Source: Escherichia coli (GTDB lineage Bacteria; Pseudomonadota; Gammaproteobacteria; Enterobacterales; Enterobacteriaceae). From it: DNA of 64,000 nucleotides. The stretch lies in the NCBI RefSeq assembly GCF_003790525.1, contig NZ_CP033635.1; one strand, given 5' to 3'. Shown here piece by piece: positions 8,231 to 49,335 of this stretch; position 1 is the stretch's first letter; the number at the start of each line of letters is the position of its first letter. The position numbers were made by a program, and so were the translations under genes. Below the pieces are notes generated by a model, which had not been told where the DNA came from, did no database searches, and saw only the letters and a list, made by a program, of their open reading frames with translations.

Positions 8231-8264
8231 ATAAAAAATCCCGCCGATGGCGGGATTTTTAAGC
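8231..8264 (-). terminator. bidirectional hairpin terminator downstream of hns
   Basis: palindrome aatcccgcc-gatg-gcgggatt flanked by A and T runs on both sides. Confidence 0.65.
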
Positions 8265-26573: not shown

Positions 26574-28363
26574 TCGTGAAATAATGACATTGAATAAATC
26601 CACGACGGGGTCATGTTAATTAACTTATCATAATTAAAGTTATCACTGTTTTCACAGACATGCTTTGCGTTGTGATTAAATGATACCAATCCAGATTGAA
26701 TGAAATGTTTATCAACTAATGAAGATACACAGAAAAAAGGTTTTCCATTGGCGTCGGTTATGAATTTTTTAATGGCGTCTTTATCATTTGATTTAATAAG
26801 TACAGGAACATCACCAAAATCGAGTGGGGTTGTGCTCATTTTAAAGACGAAATCTTCATCTTTTTCTTCTCCGATTTTGTTGAAAATATTACTTGGTAGC
26901 ACCCCATTTTCGACGAAATATTTATTTAGTGGTGGTTTATGGTCACCGTAAAAGACGATTACAGCATTTGGATCTATTTTTTCTACTTGCTGTGAAAATT
27001 GAACGAATCTTTTGACTGCCTCATTAATCTCATAGGTATAAACACCTTCACCATAATCATTAATGTGTTGATAAGGACCATGAGTTGACATAGTGATCAA
27101 ATGTACAAAAATATCTTTGTTTCCTGCATTTTGGATGGCTTTTAATGCTGCATTGTAAAGCAGGTAGTCATCAGGTTGCCACTGCCATGGTTTTTTAATA
27201 CTGCTATACTCTGGTGGTAAATCTCCCATATTAATAATGCTATCAAATCTATCAAATCCAAATTTAGGGTAAATTTTATTCCTATACCAAAAGTCTGCTT
27301 GGTAATTATGTGCTGCGAAAGTAATATAGCCTTTGTTTTTCAGGGCATTAGGTAATGCGTCAACTTTTGGTTTGAATGCATCTGAATATTCTTGATAGAT
27401 GATTCCTGATATTTTATCTGAATTACTTGGTAGTCCTGTCAGCATTTCAAATTCGGCATTTGCGGTACCTCCACCGTAAACTGGTGAGATGGCCCGTAAT
27501 TCACTGTAACCTTCATCAATAACAGGTTTGAAATTTTCTCGGAAGTTTTTTTTATCATACCAACATGATTCACATAAAACATAAATAATGGTTTTATTTT
27601 TTATATGAGTGGATACTAAAGATCTTTTTTCATCTAAATATCTTAATTGTTCTGCATCAGTTGCATGTGGTACAGATTTTCTGACACTTGTTTGTATTAT
27701 ATGCATTGGCAAGCCATTAACGCCAATATTTTGAGACCAATTCCAGTAAATATATTTTATATTTAAGTTGTTCGCGCTGGAGTTTATGATTTCAGAAATC
27801 CTATTGTTAGGGCTAAAAATGGTTCCAATATAGGGGTAGAATGAAAAGGGGATCGTAATGATAATTAAAAGAAATAACGATATATAATTTTTTCTTGTTG
27901 TGACCGTTTTTTTGCTAAGTAGGATTGAGATTATTGCGCCAATTAGAATAGCGACAGAGTAAGTAATGGATGATAAGTTGAGGTATTTTCCTGCGACACT
28001 CAAATTGAATCCAGAAACAATGTCATTAAATGATAAAGGCTCACCGGTTAACGCCATTTTAGTACTGTTCACAAACATCAATGTTATAATTGCGATGCCT
28101 GATAAATAAGAACATAGAAAAATTGGAATGTTTATTATTCTAAATAACAAATAAATAAACAAAATGGGGGATGAACGCCAGATGAAATTCAATATTGCAC
28201 CAATTAACTCTTTAGGCGGTTCAATATTTCCTATGATAACTATTGACTGATTTAGAAAACAAAATAAGTACAATAAAAACATAACGTTGACAATGTCGAA
28301 AACATATGATTTCAACTTTAAGTTTTTATATCTTGTAACGACTTTGCTCAAACCGATACTCAT
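26570..28363 (-). CDS. sulfatase/LTA-synthase-like membrane protein (alkaline phosphatase superfamily; possible phosphoglycerol or phosphoethanolamine transferase)
   Basis: 597 aa; N-terminal multi-TM region, C-terminal domain with metal-site-like motifs HLITMSTHGPYQ and VIVFYGDHKPP; visibly AT-rich compared with flanks. Confidence 0.7.
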   Translation of the reverse strand: MSIGLSKVVTRYKNLKLKSYVFDIVNVMFLLYLFCFLNQSIVIIGNIEPPKELIGAILNFIWRSSPILFIYLLFRIINIPIFLCSYLSGIAIITLMFVNSTKMALTGEPLSFNDIVSGFNLSVAGKYLNLSSITYSVAILIGAIISILLSKKTVTTRKNYISLFLLIIITIPFSFYPYIGTIFSPNNRISEIINSSANNLNIKYIYWNWSQNIGVNGLPMHIIQTSVRKSVPHATDAEQLRYLDEKRSLVSTHIKNKTIIYVLCESCWYDKKNFRENFKPVIDEGYSELRAISPVYGGGTANAEFEMLTGLPSNSDKISGIIYQEYSDAFKPKVDALPNALKNKGYITFAAHNYQADFWYRNKIYPKFGFDRFDSIINMGDLPPEYSSIKKPWQWQPDDYLLYNAALKAIQNAGNKDIFVHLITMSTHGPYQHINDYGEGVYTYEINEAVKRFVQFSQQVEKIDPNAVIVFYGDHKPPLNKYFVENGVLPSNIFNKIGEEKDEDFVFKMSTTPLDFGDVPVLIKSNDKDAIKKFITDANGKPFFCVSSLVDKHFIQSGLVSFNHNAKHVCENSDNFNYDKLINMTPSWIYSMSLFHD

Positions 28364-30118: not shown

Positions 30119-30157
30119 GCATAAAGTCAAAAGCCTCCGACCGGAGGCTTTTGACTA

Positions 30158-32327: not shown

Positions 32328-32966
32328 ATGAAAAAGTTAACAGTGGCGGCTTTGGCAGTAACAACTCTTCTCTCTGGCAGTGCCTATGCGCATGAAGCAG
32401 GCGAATTTTTTATGCGTGCAGGGTCTGCAACCGTACGTCCAACAGAAGGTGCTGGTGGTACGTTAGGAAGTCTGGGTGGATTCAGCGTGACCAATAACAC
32501 GCAACTGGGCCTGACGTTTACTTATATGGCGACCGACAACATTGGTGTGGAATTACTGGCTGCGACGCCGTTCCGCCATAAAATCGGCACCCGGGCGACC
32601 GGCGATATTGCAACCGTTCATCATCTGCCGCCAACACTGATGGCGCAGTGGTATTTTGGTGATGCCAGCAGCAAATTCCGTCCTTACGTTGGGGCAGGTA
32701 TTAACTACACCACCTTCTTTGATAATGGATTTAACGATCATGGCAAAGAGGCGGGGCTTTCCGATCTCAGTCTGAAAGATTCCTGGGGAGCTGCCGGGCA
32801 GGTGGGGGTTGATTATCTGATTAACCGTGACTGGTTGGTTAACATGTCAGTGTGGTACATGGATATCGACACCACCGCCAGCTATAAATTTAATGGAACC
32901 CCCGTGAAAGACGCGGTACGACTGGATCCGTGGGTGTTTATGTTCTCTGCCGGATACCGCTTCTAA
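32328..32966 (+). CDS. ompW: outer membrane protein W
   Basis: start at MKKLTVAALAVTTLLSGSAYA signal peptide; beta-barrel ending ...SAGYRF (212 aa). Confidence 0.92.
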   Translation: MKKLTVAALAVTTLLSGSAYAHEAGEFFMRAGSATVRPTEGAGGTLGSLGGFSVTNNTQLGLTFTYMATDNIGVELLAATPFRHKIGTRATGDIATVHHLPPTLMAQWYFGDASSKFRPYVGAGINYTTFFDNGFNDHGKEAGLSDLSLKDSWGAAGQVGVDYLINRDWLVNMSVWYMDIDTTASYKFNGTPVKDAVRLDPWVFMFSAGYRF

Positions 32967-33002
32967 TTTTCTCTGCAAAACCTCTGCAAAACTCTTCTGC
33001 AA

Positions 33003-33029
33003 AACTGGTTATCAAATAACCAGTTTTTT
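33003..33029 (+). terminator. ompW terminator hairpin overlapping the prophage integrase stop codon (probable attL core region)
   Basis: perfect palindrome aactggttat-caa-ataaccagtt followed by TTTTTT; int stop codon lies at 33012-33014 inside the hairpin. Confidence 0.55.
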
Positions 33030-34142
33030 CCACTCTTTACCGCGTGCGTCGTTGTAAATATCGGTCATTTTTTGATTCGAATGGCCCAGCAAAATTTTGG
33101 TATCAATTCCCTGTTCTCTGAACAATCGTTCTGATAAAGATCTTTGCTCATGGAAAGAGGGTGGCGTGCCATTAGCACGCCAGTTGTAATCCACAGAATC
33201 CCGGGCTTTTTTAAATGCGACTGTTAATGTTGCTGGTTTAACCATCCCGCCGCGCTTACCCATCCCCTTAGCGTGATGATGGTGCAATAACCACGGACTA
33301 AGGATGTAATCACGACAGGATGACACCACGTCACCCAGGGTAAGATTTAATTTGTCGCAACGCAGAGCCAGAGGAATGGCTATCCGGGCTCCTGTTTTTT
33401 GCTGTTCGACATGAAGGTAACCATCCCGGATATCCGAAAACTGCATTTTGCAAATATCCGAAAGACGCTGGCCCGTCATCAGTGCCAGCAGCATGCCGCG
33501 CTGTAAAAAGTAACCATCCTTTTCCGCTGCGTTATAAATCATCATCCACTCATCAAAAGTCAGTCGCTGTCTTGATATCCGCACTTGCGGTTTTTTTGCC
33601 GATTCAGCCGGGTTAAAGCCTGGCGGAACATCACCAGTTTGTTGAGCCTCCCGGAAAACATCGATCAATACCTTCCTGAAAATTTGTCCCATTCTGTTAT
33701 GTCCCTTTGCCTTGTATTCTTCCAGCACCGATACCACATCTTTTACGGTTATGGCATCTAGCGGCCTGGCTCCAAAACGTTCATCAAACACCCTGAGAGG
33801 AGCCGCTTTTTGCTTCAGCGTGCTGAGTTTGATCTCTCCGTTCTCATATCTTTCCTGTTGAATTTTTCTGTAATTATTCAGAAAAATGGAAACGGTTGAT
33901 GCGCCGCCGGTATCACTAATAATTTTCTCCTGCAGACTGAGCATTTGCTCCATTTGTTGTCTGGCAAGACGGCTGTTCGCTTCTGCTGAAATGGTTTCCG
34001 CCAGTTTCTGGTCAATACTGCCGAGTCCATGATTTTTACCTGTGATGGGATTCCTGTAACGCCAGTAAACTTTGTTATTTCTTTTGTCAAAATACGGAGA
34101 TAAACCCGGAACATCGGTTTTATATTTTCTCGGGCGCGCCAT
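33012..34142 (-). CDS. int: prophage tyrosine integrase
   Basis: 376 aa, lambda-Int-like catalytic C-terminus (...HEQRSLSERLFREQGIDTKILLGHSNQKMTDIYNDARG) with catalytic Tyr in DIYND. Confidence 0.9.
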   Translation of the reverse strand: MARPRKYKTDVPGLSPYFDKRNNKVYWRYRNPITGKNHGLGSIDQKLAETISAEANSRLARQQMEQMLSLQEKIISDTGGASTVSIFLNNYRKIQQERYENGEIKLSTLKQKAAPLRVFDERFGARPLDAITVKDVVSVLEEYKAKGHNRMGQIFRKVLIDVFREAQQTGDVPPGFNPAESAKKPQVRISRQRLTFDEWMMIYNAAEKDGYFLQRGMLLALMTGQRLSDICKMQFSDIRDGYLHVEQQKTGARIAIPLALRCDKLNLTLGDVVSSCRDYILSPWLLHHHHAKGMGKRGGMVKPATLTVAFKKARDSVDYNWRANGTPPSFHEQRSLSERLFREQGIDTKILLGHSNQKMTDIYNDARGKEWKKLVI

Positions 34143-34368
34143 CTTCCAGTATCCTCTTCAAAGCAGGGTGATCTGTGGCGATCACCTCCGGCTTGTTTAC
34201 CATTCCGACAAAGCGAGCGCGTGGATCCACTCGCCAGTGCCTTCCTACTTTTTTGGGGAGAGGAAATATCATTCCGGCTTTAGCGTATTTACTTAACGTA
34301 CCCGGAGTAGGGACTGGTTCACTGAATTCCTCTTTTGCCCACTCAGTGAGCAGAATAAGTCTTGCCAT
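34120..34368 (-). CDS. xis: excisionase
   Basis: 82 aa ORF overlapping int start; winged-helix motif GMIFPLPKKVGRHWRVDPRARF similar to lambdoid Xis. Confidence 0.65.
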   Translation of the reverse strand: MARLILLTEWAKEEFSEPVPTPGTLSKYAKAGMIFPLPKKVGRHWRVDPRARFVGMVNKPEVIATDHPALKRILEDGAPEKI

Positions 34369-34432: not shown

Positions 34433-36886
34433 TTAAAAATCAGCCTGATTCGGGATCAGTTTTTGTATAGTGGCTGTTACGTATTTTGCCTGGTGAAGAG
34501 CGTCATCCAGAGCATTATGGCGCACGCCTTCGAATGGAATTACGCTTCTGGCATTGAAGTCTGTGATTTTCCCCATCTCAACGATTGTGCGTACATCACG
34601 ATCGTTGCTGTAATGCCACGGACAGGGGATGTCCAGACGTTCGTATGAGGTGCGCAAAATTGCGTTATCGAACGTTGCGCCATTACCCCACACCTGAACG
34701 AATTTTTCATCAGAGTGTTCATTGACGAATTCCCGAAAACGCAAAAGGGCATCTTTCATTTTTACCTGGTCAGTTAAAATGGCAGCTCTGGCTTCGCTGG
34801 ACTGCTTCAGCCACCATTCGATGGTGCCACCATCAGGAACAGCCCCTGTATTCATTGCGTCAGTCAGGCTGATAACGATATAAAATACCGGCCCGATTTC
34901 CCCTGTTTCCGGGTCGAAGAAAACCGCACCAATAACTACTATGGGTGCATTGGTGTTGGCTCCCATTGTTTCAAGGTCGACTGACAGGTGATTCCATACT
35001 CTGCTGGTGGATGTGATTTCACGATGACCGTTCATCTTAATTAAGGAATTTTCTGTTTCGCCAGTTTTATTATCGCTGGCGTGGCCCTGAGCGCCGCCAG
35101 TGTTCTCCTTGTGCGGATGCTCAGTGCCTTCCGTTTCCTCCGGATTTTTTTCCTGAGATTCAGCCTGATTTTCTCCATTGAATGTTTCCTGGTATGTTGC
35201 GTCACCCATTACTGAGCCACAATCAGGGCAGTTGCCGCCGCTGGTCTGACCGCAGGCGGTGCAGACTTTTTCCGGTTCCTGTTGCGCTACTGGCTCAGGT
35301 TGTTTCGTTTCTGGCTCGTTTTGTAACGCATTTTGGCTGTTTTGTTCCGCTTTCTGGTCGTTCTGTTCCGTTTCTTGCTGGTTCTGGTTCACTGAATCGC
35401 GAGTCTGGACTCCCTTAACCCATTTCAGATCATTCGGGTCGCTAATCCCTTCAACGAACTCACCACGCGAGGCCGCCAGTAATTTGTCTGCATCGACAGG
35501 ATTTTTGGGCGGAATGTTTTTCCTAGCTTCATGGAGTTCTGCCCGCAGTTTCTGATATTTCGCATCAACAGAATTCACCTGCGGCTGAGCATCCAGCGGC
35601 TGCGTGTCCGGATGATGTTCAGTTGTATCCGGTTCCACTGTTTCAGTCGTTGGCTGTTCATCTGCCATTGCGCCAGACGGTTGCGGTTTTTCTTCATCAT
35701 CCTGTTTTCCTTCTTCTGTTACACGCTGCGGCATTGGGGCAGAGGAACGACCGCAGGCAATATCCACGATTTCCGGATCAGGGTTGGCATGATCGGTTTC
35801 GGTCAGCACTTTATTCAGGTATTCGGTGACGCGCTGGGGCATAGCCTCTATACCAACCGGTGCTTCTTTCACGGAGGCAACCACGATGGCGCGGGAATAA
35901 TCCATCCCGCCTGGCATGTTCAGAAAAGCCTTAAGGAAGACGGAGAAACAGGGATCATTTTCTGCGATAATTTCGTTAACACGTCTGGTATGTGAAGGAT
36001 GCATGTTGTAAATATCCACATCCATCGAACGAGCCAGTTTTCCTGTAGCAACATCGAATGCCATTGACGCATTATCATGCACAAAACCTTCGCCGCGATC
36101 GGTAAGGATACCGCCGCCAGCGTTAGCGCCGGATGGTGTGCGACTGATGCGAGAAACACGATTTCCTTTCATCCACTCTTTTGTAAGCAGACCACGATCA
36201 GTGTAGTCAGCGTCCAGGTATGCTTCGATGAAGGAGGTCATCAGTCCCAGGTCTGAATTTACGGGGGCGGGAAAAACTTTGTCAGTGTCCCGCACCAGTT
36301 TGTACAAATCCCGAATCTCCAGCGGTTCGAGTTGCGCTGCTTTATTTGAGATGGCCAGCGCGGTAACGGCGGGAAGTTTTTCTTCCTGTGCGTTATGTAA
36401 TGAGCGCAGTTCATCCCGCGAAACGTGCGTTACTGGTTTTTCGCCGCCGTGTTGCGCCAGCCAGCGAACAGGCAGAATCTGACCTGAAACCGGCAGAAGC
36501 ATATTCTCCTCAATCTCAGTCATGTCTTCGCCATTAACATTGGTGTTGTCAGTGCTGGCTGGTTTGTCCTGCGCGGATGGCGGGGGCGCGATAAATATCA
36601 TTGTGATGCCATCTTCGCCGCCTTTTTCATACCGGTTACAGAATTCGGTATCAAACACGCCTTCCGGTGGAAGGTCATCAACAACGGGCAAATGGACGCG
36701 AACAGGTTTTTTAAAGTCGTCTTCATCATAATCGTTATCATCCATTGCGGTAATACAGCGGGAGATGGCAACAGATAATTTTTTTGCTGTAGTCCAGTAA
36801 AAACCACCTTTAATCCCAAGGCGTTTTCTGACTTTGTCATTTTTAGCTTCGCAATATAGCGCAAAAGTTTCTTTATCAGTGCTCAT
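34433..36886 (-). CDS. phage exonuclease family protein with C-terminal DEDDh (DnaQ-like) 3'-5' exonuclease domain
   Basis: 817 aa; C-terminus [23 protein letters not shown]...[13 protein letters not shown]...HNALDDA; central zinc-ribbon [16 protein letters not shown]. Confidence 0.75.
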
Positions 36887-49181: not shown

Positions 49182-49257
49182 GTCCCTTTAGCTCAGTGGT
49201 GAGAGCGAGCGACTCATAATCGCCAGGTCGCTGGTTCAAATCCAGCAAGGGCCACCA
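49182..49257 (+). tRNA. tRNA with CAU anticodon (Ile2/Met-type, ileZ-like)
   Basis: cloverleaf folds by eye: D stem GCTC/GAGC, anticodon loop CTCATAA, T loop TTCAAAT, CCA encoded; one mismatch at pair 2-71. Confidence 0.8.
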
Positions 49258-49258
49258 A

Positions 49259-49335
49259 CCGCCACTAGCTCATCAGGAGAGAGCATCAGCCTTCTAAGCT
49301 GACTGTGCGGGGTTCGAGTCCCCGGTGGCGGTCCA
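49259..49335 (+). tRNA. tRNA-Arg (UCU)
   Basis: cloverleaf folds by eye: D stem GCTC/GAGC, anticodon stem TCAGC/GCTGA, loop CTTCTAA, T stem CGGGG/CCCCG, CCA encoded. Confidence 0.85.

What the first reader, a model, noticed from the sequence alone, without database searches (positions are those of the whole stretch)
32967..33030. attL candidate: integrase stop codon inside a perfect palindrome plus a triple CTGCAAAAC repeat
Between the ompW stop and the int stop lies ctctgcaaaac-ctctgcaaaac-tcttctgcaaaac (three copies of CTGCAAAAC) followed by the perfect palindrome AACTGGTTAT-CAA-ATAACCAGTT and a T run. The int stop codon (33012-33014) sits inside the hairpin loop region. This is the likely core of the attachment site and shows how the phage reconstitutes the ompW terminator.
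Basis: seen in the sequence. Interest (0 to 1): 0.35.

Follow-up and report, generated by a model that had tools for sequence, protein, structure and literature searches.

The report
Prophage junction arm beside ompW
This stretch is the phage-derived flank of a common E. coli prophage's left junction, holding three probable integrase docking sites and a terminator hairpin. The real crossover site lies about 100 bases upstream inside ompW, so this is an ordinary lambda-style arrangement.

Summary
Three CTGCAAAAC copies (32973-81, 32984-92, 32997-33005), a perfect 12-nt-arm palindrome (33001-12 / 33016-27), a T run, and the int stop (33012-14) at the arm/loop border are all present and far beyond chance.

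Comparing attL with attB (K-12), attR (strain DG341-1, 98.5-100% identical prophage) and intact attP contigs puts the shared core at 32853-32880. That is inside ompW, about 85 bp before its stop. Everything to the right is phage DNA, including a substitute ompW 3' end (32881-32966) and the whole finding. This matches the published 121-bp att of PPompW prophages (window 32848-32968).

The triple repeat is best read as lambda-style arm-type Int-binding sites (P'1-P'3):
- The Int has the lambda arm-binding domain.
- A fourth copy sits in the P arm, 253 bp upstream in attP.
- The motif is invariant across diverged ompW phages.
- It travels with int in 21 viral contigs with about a dozen unrelated left flanks.
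- Lambda has the same layout.

The hairpin is probably a bidirectional terminator that replaces the native ompW terminator. One compensatory pair supports it; this evidence is weaker.

Ordinary biology, and a new member of a known kind. In passing: the phage-borne ompW end rewrites OmpW's last loop and explains a published "mosaic" hypervariable region.

The parts
32328..32966 (+). Hybrid ompW CDS (212 aa). The host part runs up to the core; the phage-supplied part runs from 32881 to the stop.
   Evidence: Annotated as ompW in the 99.7%-identical DG341-1 locus. Identical to solved E. coli OmpW (2F1T/2MHL) except in the segment right of the core.
32853..32880 (.). attL copy of the common core (crossover region): TGGTACATGGATATCGACACCACCGCCA. 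It contains the dyad GTGGTA...(T/C)ACCAC. The strand-exchange (overlap) region is inferred to lie within 32853-32869.
   Evidence: Identity block shared by attL, K-12 attB and DG341-1 attR. The O145-type phage shares CAGTGTGGTACATGGATATCGATACCAC across attL, attR, attP and attB. The C at 32870 (attL) versus T (attB, attR) places the exchange to its left (inference).
32881..32966 (+). Phage-borne substitute ompW 3' end (28 codons plus stop), encoding SYKFNGTPVKDAVRLDPWVFMFSAGYRF.
   Evidence: It diverges from K-12 exactly from 32881 onward. The K-12-type 3' end survives as a pseudogene remnant at attR. Three different versions occur among ompW prophages.
32972..32981 (+). Putative arm-type Int-binding site P'1 (TCTGCAAAAC).
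32983..32992 (+). Putative arm-type Int-binding site P'2 (TCTGCAAAAC).
32996..33005 (+). Putative arm-type Int-binding site P'3 (TCTGCAAAAC). Its last 5 nt form the base of the hairpin.
33001..33029 (.). Hairpin (12-bp stem, 3-nt loop) with an A run before it and a T run after it. Probable bidirectional intrinsic terminator for ompW (+) and int (-).
   Evidence: 81-nt + strand segment folds to -14.7 kcal/mol, z = -5.3; stem kept in 4 haplotypes, with one compensatory T-A to C-G pair and one G-U pair.
33012..34142 (-). int: lambda-family tyrosine integrase with an N-terminal arm-DNA-binding domain. The stop codon is at 33012-33014.
   Evidence: Pfam PF09003 E = 3e-20 and PF00589 E = 5e-16. 96% identical to PPompW IntE, 49% to phage 21 Int, 36% to lambda Int.
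34120..34368 (-). xis (excisionase), overlapping the int start.
   Evidence: Pfam PF07825 E = 3.6e-7. Annotated as excisionase in DG341-1.

Best explanation
The interval 32967-33030 is the outer part of the phage-derived P' arm of attL, from a lambdoid 'PPompW' prophage integrated inside the 3' end of ompW. Int-mediated crossover occurs about 100 bp upstream, in a 23-28 bp core within ompW (32853-32880). The phage carries its own copy of the last 28 ompW codons, so the gene stays intact. The three tandem TCTGCAAAAC repeats (spacing 11 and 13 bp) are the arm-type binding sites for the N-terminal domain of Int and correspond to lambda P'1-P'3. Together with a single copy in the P arm (about -144 from the core centre) and an IHF-like site next to it, they would let Int bridge arm and core DNA in the recombination complex. 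The hairpin that overlaps the third repeat and the int stop codon, flanked by A and T runs, most likely acts as a bidirectional intrinsic terminator. It would end the rebuilt ompW transcript before it runs antisense into int, and end int transcripts before they enter ompW. In doing so it replaces the native ompW terminator, which is left behind at attR. What is shown: the position of the core, the phage origin of the segment, the motif distribution and conservation, and the Int domain content. What is inferred: Int binding to the repeats, termination at the hairpin, and the exact overlap region.
For: Core and phage origin:
- The attL/attB/attR alignment places the core at 32853-32880.
- An ompW remnant pseudogene sits at attR of the 98.5-100% identical DG341-1 prophage.
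- Intact attP contigs L078, L106 and L109 read P arm, core, ompW', triple repeat, int without interruption.
- The published 121-bp PPompW att was verified by PCR of excised circles (GenBank annotation).

Arm sites:
- Int has the lambda Arm-DNA-binding domain.
- There are 4 perfect copies of the 9-mer within a ~290-bp attP, and only the 3 P' copies in the 64-kb window.
- The three copies are invariant in 7 attL variants, while the spacers and the adjacent ompW' segment vary.
- The P-arm copy is invariant, and homology among 5 diverged attR arms begins exactly at it.
- The P-arm-to-P'1 distance is 253 bp both in the reconstructed attP and in the independent intact attP contigs.
- The same triple, with the same 11+13 spacing, lies next to the stop of a 375-381 aa Int in 26 viral contigs. 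Of these, 21 are not PPompW-type, with Int only 52-74% identical in the catalytic part and about a dozen unrelated left flanks.
- Lambda itself has three tandem P' repeats overlapping its int stop.
- Klebsiella phages with 44-52% identical Int have three tandem ~11-bp repeats with a different 5' half next to int.

Hairpin:
- 12-bp perfect stem, with z = -5.3 for the folded segment.
- The stem is kept in 4 haplotypes, with one compensatory change whose int-coding side is synonymous (GTT to GTC).
- The other two 12-nt palindromes in the window are classic bidirectional terminators between or after genes.
- Related phages that carry a strong GC-rich terminator left of the repeats lack this hairpin.
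Against: - No binding or termination experiment exists.
- Only one perfect copy is found in the P arm, with no recognisable P2 counterpart.
- The P' sites lie at +109 to +141 from the core centre, about 55 bp further out than in lambda. No IHF consensus was found between the core and P'1.
- One attL type has a 15-bp insertion between the core and the P' sites, which changes the helical phase.
- The hairpin stem has only 3 G-C pairs, and a simple terminator scan did not flag it.
- Covariation rests on 4 haplotypes and is not statistically distinguishable from shuffles (136/500).
- The right arm is constrained by int coding anyway.
- The window's own attR lies about 18 kb beyond the window end, so the P arm is taken from a near-identical prophage.
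Confidence: 0.78

Rival explanations
1. One reading: the repeats plus palindrome are the core of the attachment site, where phage and host DNA cross over.
For: The block lies at the host/prophage boundary, between ompW and int, and it is absent from prophage-free ompW loci.
Against: - The block is not present in attB or attR.
- The shared core is at 32853-32880.
- The published att duplication ends at window 32968.
- The triple repeat occurs next to int in phages with unrelated integration flanks.
Confidence: 0.02
2. The repeats act at the RNA level, as part of the int 3' untranslated region. They would be processing or stability elements analogous to lambda sib/tI, or an RNase III target together with the hairpin, rather than DNA sites for Int.
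For: They lie immediately downstream of the int stop on the int transcript. The - strand RNA is predicted to form a second small hairpin within the repeats (-19 kcal/mol, z = -3.1).
Against: - A further copy lies in the P arm, about 250 bp away on the far side of the core, where it marks the edge of attP homology. An int 3' UTR role does not explain this.
- Unlike sib, the element is not separated from int by integration.
- Rfam has no match.
- The 11/13-bp spacing and the 10-bp unit fit DNA-binding sites as in lambda.
Confidence: 0.07
3. The hairpin has no terminator role. It is a by-product of the third arm site (AAAAC) lying next to the int C-terminal codons (AAAAAACTGGTTATT), or it is a protein-binding palindrome.
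For: The stem is AT-rich and was not called by the consensus scan. The right arm is coding. The hairpin is absent in most non-ompW members of the Int clade. Covariation is statistically weak.
Against: - The non-coding left arm tracks a synonymous change in the coding arm.
- A third haplotype from a more distant ompW phage keeps all 12 pairs with a different loop and a different stop codon.
- The A-run/stem/T-run layout between convergent genes matches the window's two bona fide bidirectional terminators.
- Clade members that have a GC-rich terminator to the left of the repeats lack the hairpin, as expected if one terminator is needed.
Confidence: 0.22
4. The triple repeat is a functionless slippage duplication, or it was inherited with the substitute ompW segment from the donor species' ompW downstream region.
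For: Short tandem duplications arise easily. The repeats directly follow the ompW' stop.
Against: The repeats are invariant while the neighbouring ompW' segment and the spacers vary. They are found with the same spacing next to int in 21 non-PPompW contigs with about a dozen unrelated left flanks that have no ompW. K-12 has nothing similar downstream of ompW.
Confidence: 0.03

Closest known systems
Bacteriophage lambda attP, P' arm (arm-type sites P'1-P'3 next to int)
   Same: - A tyrosine integrase with an N-terminal arm-binding domain (36% identical overall).
- Gene order att-int-xis.
- Three tandem ~10-bp direct repeats in the arm next to int, ending at the int stop codon. The lambda sequence was read directly.
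- A further copy in the same orientation far out in the P arm (about -144 here; lambda 'int 1' is at -148 to -129).
- An IHF-consensus site next to that P-arm copy.
   Different: - The motif is TCTGCAAAAC, not C/AAGTCACTAT.
- The P' sites are at +109 to +141 rather than about +54 to +85, because 86 bp of ompW coding sequence is inserted between the core and the arm sites.
- No inverted P2-like site and no H'-like IHF site were recognised.
- The core lies inside a protein-coding gene.
- A hairpin overlaps P'3 and the int stop.
PPompW prophages of STEC O145:H28 / O157:H7 (Nakamura et al. 2021, PMC8112680; GenBank LC567818-LC567841)
   Same: The integration locus, gene order and Int (96% identical) are the same. 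The 121-bp imperfect att duplication corresponds to window 32848-32968. The triple repeat is identical.
   Different: - The window's phage carries a different substitute ompW end (SYKFNGTPVKDA versus KYKSGVTTVKDS).
- Its perfect core block is shifted (TGGTAC...CGCCA versus CAGTG...CCAC).
- Its hairpin has T-A instead of C-G at one pair.
- No 21-bp attB-in-PP sequence occurs within the window.
- The paper does not mention arm-type sites (0 occurrences).
Phage 21 / e14 integration into icd
   Same: This is the closest characterised Int (49% identical). Integration is inside the 3' end of a host gene, with a phage-borne diverged replacement of that 3' end (the icd pseudogene in M61865).
   Different: The gene order is att-xis-int in phage 21, so the arm next to int is not the one carrying the substitute gene end. 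The CTGCAAAAY motif is not enriched there.
Bidirectional Rho-independent terminators between convergent genes (for example tonB/yciA in this same window, 30125-30156)
   Same: A perfect palindrome flanked by an A run and a T run, lying between two convergent genes.
   Different: The stem is AT-rich (3 G-C pairs of 12), the loop is 3 nt, and the structure overlaps a stop codon and a putative protein-binding site. It was not called by the consensus scan.

Membership tests
att core (crossover site) of a tyrosine-integrase prophage | The sequence is identical in attP and attB and is therefore present at both prophage ends. | tested here: not met
   For 32967-33030: absent from K-12 attB and from attR. 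The feature is met instead by 32853-32880.
att core (crossover site) of a tyrosine-integrase prophage | Imperfect inverted core-type sites flank a 6-8 bp overlap region. | tested here: inconclusive
   GTGGTA (32852-57) and TACCAC (32870-75; CACCAC in the window) form a dyad around CATGGATATCGA, as read. The overlap position is inferred only from the C/T difference at 32870.
Lambda-type arm-type Int-binding sites | The cognate integrase carries the N-terminal arm-DNA-binding domain. | tested here: met
   Pfam PF09003 Arm-DNA-bind_1, E = 3.1e-20, residues 2-71.
Lambda-type arm-type Int-binding sites | A ~10-bp motif, unrelated to the core sequence, is repeated in both arms of attP within about 150 bp of the core. 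| tested here: met
   Three copies at +109 to +141 and one at -144 to -136. The same layout is seen in contiguous attP contigs. No copy occurs elsewhere in the 64-kb window.
Lambda-type arm-type Int-binding sites | The motif is conserved with the integrase lineage, independently of the integration site. | tested here: met
   Invariant in 7 attL and 5 attR variants. Present with identical spacing next to int in 21 non-PPompW viral contigs with about a dozen unrelated left flanks. More distant Ints (44-52% identical) have triple repeats with a different 5' half.
Lambda-type arm-type Int-binding sites | The Int N-terminal domain binds the sites directly (footprint or gel shift), and the sites are required for recombination. 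| not testable with these tools
Lambda-type arm-type Int-binding sites | Sites for accessory DNA-bending proteins (IHF) lie between the arm sites and the core in both arms. | tested here: inconclusive
   P arm: AATCAGGCAGTTA matches WATCARNNNNTTR at -117 to -105, and the match is kept in all variants. P' arm: no consensus match between the core and P'1.
Intrinsic (Rho-independent) terminator | A stable stem-loop is immediately followed by a U run. | tested here: met
   12-bp stem, 3-nt loop and six Ts. The fold of the 81-nt segment is -14.7 kcal/mol, z = -5.3. However, only 3 G-C pairs are present and 4 of the 6 Ts are in the stem, and the consensus scan did not call it.
Intrinsic (Rho-independent) terminator | The structure is conserved through compensatory change. 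| tested here: inconclusive
   100% pairing in 4 haplotypes, with 1 pair changed on both sides and 1 G-U pair. However, 136 of 500 shuffles do as well.
Intrinsic (Rho-independent) terminator | Transcript 3' ends map to the U run in vivo. | not testable with these tools
   No transcript data are available.
PPompW prophage family (Nakamura et al. 2021) | A lambdoid prophage integrated in the ompW 3' end, with a >90% identical integrase and a 121-bp imperfect att duplication. | tested here: met
   Int is 96.3% identical at the protein level and 92% at the DNA level to the LC5678xx records. The att duplication aligns to 32848-32968. The attR ompW remnant is present in the near-identical DG341-1 prophage. 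The window's own attR lies outside the window.

The most novel reading that the evidence does not exclude
Integration of PPompW-type phages works as a lysogenic-conversion device on a surface protein. Each phage lineage carries its own version of the tip of OmpW's last beta-hairpin (extracellular loop 4) and swaps it in on integration. At least three cassettes are seen, one of them 5 residues longer. This would account for the OmpW 'HVR1' alleles recently attributed to mosaic evolution by recombination. It could also change recognition of OmpW by colicin S4, OmpW-dependent phages or conjugative TraN adhesins, to the benefit of the lysogen or the phage. Separately, the TCTGCAAAAC triple (11+13 bp spacing) would be a diagnostic arm-site signature for a whole clade of enterobacterial integrases with many different targets.
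Probability: 0.25. Interest if true: 0.55.

Novelty: new member of a known kind. Interest (0 to 1): 0.2.

Why it matters
It corrects where this very common prophage recombines. An int gene sits next to ompW in about 1,700 of 5,426 complete E. coli genomes, including O157:H7 and O145:H28. The crossover is inside ompW, not in the intergenic repeats.

It also gives a concrete, testable map of the phage attachment site: core, three P' sites, one P site, an IHF-like site and a terminator. That map can guide prophage-boundary annotation and engineering of this Int clade.

The biology is the standard lambda paradigm, so the finding itself is not surprising. The side observation has somewhat wider interest for work on outer-membrane-protein variation and receptor evolution: prophage integration replaces OmpW's last surface loop, and this explains a published 'hypervariable region'.

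Tried and rejected
- A search for a second copy of the 32600-33100 region inside the window found only chance 12-mers. The prophage right end lies about 18 kb beyond the window end, so attR was taken from the near-identical DG341-1 genome.
- Hit H47 (AR_0058) looked like a possible tandem or attP junction. It turned out to be an attR with a deletion that joins the ompW remnant to trpA.
- Phage 21 (closest characterised Int) was scanned for CTGCAAAAY: 4 matches at up to 1 mismatch, not above chance (43/200 shuffles). Its gene order is different, so it is uninformative.
- Rfam at permissive E-value returned only a meaningless snoRNA hit at E = 0.86.
- The consensus terminator scan did not flag the hairpin.
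- Covariation counting on 4 haplotypes is supportive but not significant.
- No second (P2-like) arm site or P'-side IHF site was found by regex.
- A literature search for the motif together with 'integrase' returned nothing relevant. A search for arm-type/lambdoid/icd papers returned nothing on ompW phages.
- The 21-bp attB-in-PP sequence of Nakamura et al. is absent from the window.
- tblastn of the third published OmpW HVR1 type (EVKYKSNGAVLPAGRYSDNV) against phage records found no exact carrier, so its phage origin is untested.
- A sib-like retroregulation reading was considered and rejected, because the hairpin is not separated from int by integration.
Full report
**Observation**

The sequence is as described.
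- The ompW stop TAA is at 32964-32966.
- CTGCAAAAC occurs at 32973-81, 32984-92 and 32997-33005. These are the only three copies in the 64-kb window.
- Each copy is preceded by T, giving a 10-bp unit TCTGCAAAAC with start-to-start spacing of 11 and 13 bp.
- The palindrome is longer than reported: 12-nt arms at 33001-12 and 33016-27, 100% complementary, with loop CAA, followed by a run of six Ts.
- The int ORF (- strand, 33012-34142, 376 aa) stops at 33012-14, at the boundary of left arm and loop.
- The right arm encodes the last Int residues, K-K-L-V-I.

None of 60 first-order Markov simulations of the window gave a triple 9-mer within 40 bp or a perfect 12-nt-arm palindrome. The two other such palindromes in the real window are textbook bidirectional terminators: tonB/yciA at 30125 and another at 8234.

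**Where the junction really is**

Megablast against 5,426 complete E. coli genomes shows two classes.
- About 1,708 genomes match the whole ompW-int query.
- The rest, including K-12, match only up to window 32968.

Aligning the window with prophage-free K-12 gives near-perfect identity up to 32880. Beyond that is a diverged but still ompW-like stretch to the stop codon, and then unrelated sequence.

Strain DG341-1 carries a prophage that is 98.5-100% identical to the window's over the parts compared. Its left junction is identical to the window. Its right junction, about 47 kb away, carries an 'OmpW family, missing N-terminus' pseudogene next to yciE. The window ends in the tail genes, about 18 kb short of that point, so no attR is present in the window.

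The four-way alignment shows that attR reads phage P arm, then TGGTACATGGATATCGATACCACCGCCA, then the K-12-type ompW 3' end and its native hairpin terminator. The shared core is therefore window 32853-32880. Everything to its right is phage DNA: the last 28 ompW codons, the repeats and the hairpin.

The only core difference is C in attL versus T in attB and attR at 32870. This implies exchange to the left of that base (inference). The core contains a dyad, GTGGTA...TACCAC, around CATGGATATCGA.

**Agreement with published work**

The phage collection contains PPompW records from STEC O145:H28 that are 92% identical in DNA and 96% in Int. They annotate a 121-bp 'duplication due to insertion' at both ends. 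Aligned to the window, this is 32848-32968.

Nakamura et al. [quoted passage not shown] The finding's interval begins exactly where that att ends. The paper does not mention arm-type sites.

**What the triple repeat is**

The integrase carries the lambda Arm-DNA-binding domain (PF09003, E = 3e-20) plus the catalytic domain. An excisionase gene overlaps its start. Such integrases need arm-type sites. Four lines of evidence point to TCTGCAAAAC.

1. Distribution within attP. A reconstructed attP (DG341-1 P arm plus the window core and P' arm) has copies at +109, +120 and +133, and one at -144, all in the same orientation. An IHF-consensus match, AATCAGGCAGTTA, lies at -117. Three IMG/VR contigs (L078, L106, L109) hold a contiguous PPompW attP with the P-arm copy exactly 253 bp upstream of P'1, the same distance.

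2. Conservation among ompW phages. In seven attL variants the three copies are invariant. The spacers differ (TCTT versus CCCT), and the adjacent ompW' segment exists in three very different versions, one with a 15-bp insertion. In five diverged attR arms, sequence similarity begins exactly at the invariant P-arm CTGCAAAAC; upstream of it the sequences are unrelated.

3. Conservation with the integrase, not with ompW.
   - A pattern scan of viral contigs found 33 loci with a triple copy.
   - In 26 of them a 375-381 aa ORF on the opposite strand ends within about 25 nt of the third copy.
   - Of these 26, 21 are not PPompW-type. They are 52-74% identical to the window Int in the catalytic part and share the N-terminal MARPRKY...KVYWRY(K/R)HP.TGK.HGLG segment.
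   - Their left flanks fall into about a dozen unrelated classes, many ending in a GC-rich terminator, while the 11+13 spacing is kept.
   - Two Klebsiella phages with more distant Ints (52% and 44%) have three tandem ~11-bp repeats beside int with a different 5' half: TTATCAAAAY and YCCCCAAAAY.

4. Lambda has the same plan. Read directly from the lambda record, AGGTCACTAT-CAGTCAAAAT-AAAATCATTAT lie in tandem, and the int stop codon falls inside the third. Identifying these as P'1-P'3 rests on established knowledge of lambda attP.

Points against, or differences from lambda:
- Only one P-arm copy was found, with no P2-like site.
- No IHF consensus lies between the core and P'1.
- The P' sites are about 55 bp further from the core than in lambda.
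- There is a 15-bp spacing variant.
- No binding data exist, and no relevant literature on the motif was found.

**What the hairpin is**

As RNA, the + strand 81-nt segment folds to -14.7 kcal/mol (z = -5.3). The - strand also forms the stem. The layout is an A run, a stem and a T run between two convergent genes, like the window's two bona fide bidirectional terminators.

Across haplotypes the stem is preserved.
- The window has T-A where all other E. coli variants have C-G. The coding-side change is a synonymous GTT to GTC in int, matched by a change in the non-coding arm.
- A more distant ompW phage (L074, L097; Int 74% identical in the catalytic part) keeps all 12 pairs with a G-U pair, a different loop and a TAA stop.
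- Clade members that bring a GC-rich terminator to the left of the repeats lack this hairpin.

The native ompW hairpin (GACCCCGTAATATACGGGGTC) stays at attR. The phage hairpin therefore replaces the ompW terminator rather than reconstituting it. It would also insulate int from antisense read-through out of ompW.

Caveats:
- The stem has only 3 G-C pairs.
- The consensus scan did not call it.
- Covariation is not significant with 4 haplotypes.
- Rfam has nothing.

The 'core' claim is wrong. A different test, comparison with attR, attB and attP, relocates the core.

**Comparison with known systems, and novelty**

The closest known systems are these:
- the lambda attP P' arm, for mechanism and layout;
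- the published PPompW prophages, the same family, 96% Int identity;
- phage 21/e14 integration into icd, which has the closest characterised Int at 49% identity and uses the same trick of carrying a replacement gene end.

The att site is already known. The arm-site assignment, its P-arm partner and its clade-wide conservation appear not to have been described in the literature searched, but they are a new member of a well-known kind.

**Noticed in passing**

The hybrid OmpW is identical to the solved E. coli OmpW except in the phage-supplied segment. There, NYKLGGAQQHDS becomes SYKFNGTPVKDA. Other phages give KYKSGVTTVKDS or KYKSDGRKLAKGSYSDN.

A 2025 paper (PMC12175518) lists exactly this stretch (residues 182-200) as OmpW 'HVR1'. 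Its types include TAKYKSGVTTVKDSVRL, and the paper attributes them to mosaic evolution without mentioning prophages. At least that allele is simply the attL hybrid made by PPompW integration.

By the standard topology of 8-stranded outer-membrane barrels (own knowledge), this is the extracellular tip of the last hairpin (loop 4). Lysogeny therefore rewrites a surface loop of a known colicin receptor. Whether that has any functional consequence is untested.

Noticed in passing
window 32881-32966 (also L010, L012-L016): The phage-borne ompW 3' end changes the tip of OmpW's last beta-hairpin: K-12 NYKLGGAQQHDS becomes SYKFNGTPVKDA here, and other phages give KYKSGVTTVKDS or a version 5 residues longer. 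This is exactly the OmpW 'HVR1' (residues 182-200) that PMC12175518 ascribes to mosaic evolution without mentioning prophages. At least the HVR1_1 allele is the attL hybrid created by prophage integration.
   Followed up: partly
L027-L128 (IMG/VR viral contigs): The triple CTGCAAAAC with 11+13 bp spacing sits next to the stop codon of 375-381 aa integrases in 26 viral contigs. Of these, 21 are not PPompW-type, with Int 52-74% identical in the catalytic part and about a dozen unrelated left flanks. It looks like an arm-site signature of a whole integrase clade with many different integration targets.
   Followed up: partly
L020:60-100; L019:270-310 (- strand): Klebsiella phages Kp4865-4 and ST13-OXA48phi12.4 have Int 52% and 44% identical to the window's. 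Each has three tandem ~11-bp repeats beside int with a different 5' half (TTATCAAAAY; YCCCCAAAAY) but the same CAAAAY ending. This may be co-variation of the arm motif with the Int N-terminal domain.
   Followed up: no
window 32870: There is a single C/T difference inside the core: C in attL (window and DG341-1), T in K-12 attB and in all attR copies examined. This places strand exchange to the left of this base and breaks the TACCAC half of the core dyad on the phage side.
   Followed up: partly
L074, L097: A fourth ompW-type junction (...GTTCTCGGCCGGCTACCGCTTCTAA) has an Int only 74% identical in the catalytic part and a variant hairpin (loop TAA, stop codon TAA). This is presumably an ompW-integrating phage of another enterobacterial host.
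   Followed up: no
L004:2750-2941 (E. coli AR_0058): At this attR the ompW remnant is joined directly to trpA; yciE, yciF and yciG are missing. A deletion is therefore present next to the prophage right end.
   Followed up: no
window 34433-36886 (- strand): An 817-aa ORF next to xis is annotated in DG341-1 as a 3'-5' exonuclease. It has a long acidic, Q/E/P-rich low-complexity middle part, and local AT skew reaches -0.57 around 35100-35400.
   Followed up: no
window 49182-49335: Two adjacent tRNA genes lie in the prophage late region. ARAGORN calls tRNA-Met (CAT) and tRNA-Arg (TCT). The corresponding first gene is annotated tRNA-Ile in DG341-1, as is typical of lambdoid and Stx-type phages.
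   Followed up: no
window 30125-30156 and 8234-8260: These are the only other perfect 12-nt-arm palindromes in the window. Both are classic GC-rich bidirectional terminators flanked by A and T runs: one between tonB and yciA, and one at 8234.
   Followed up: yes
L018 (lambda J02459 27400-28000): The GenBank lambda record places the 'int 4' binding feature at 27814-27854. The three tandem P'-type repeats visible in the sequence lie at about 27785-27815, ending in the int stop codon. This looks like an offset in the old annotation.
   Followed up: no
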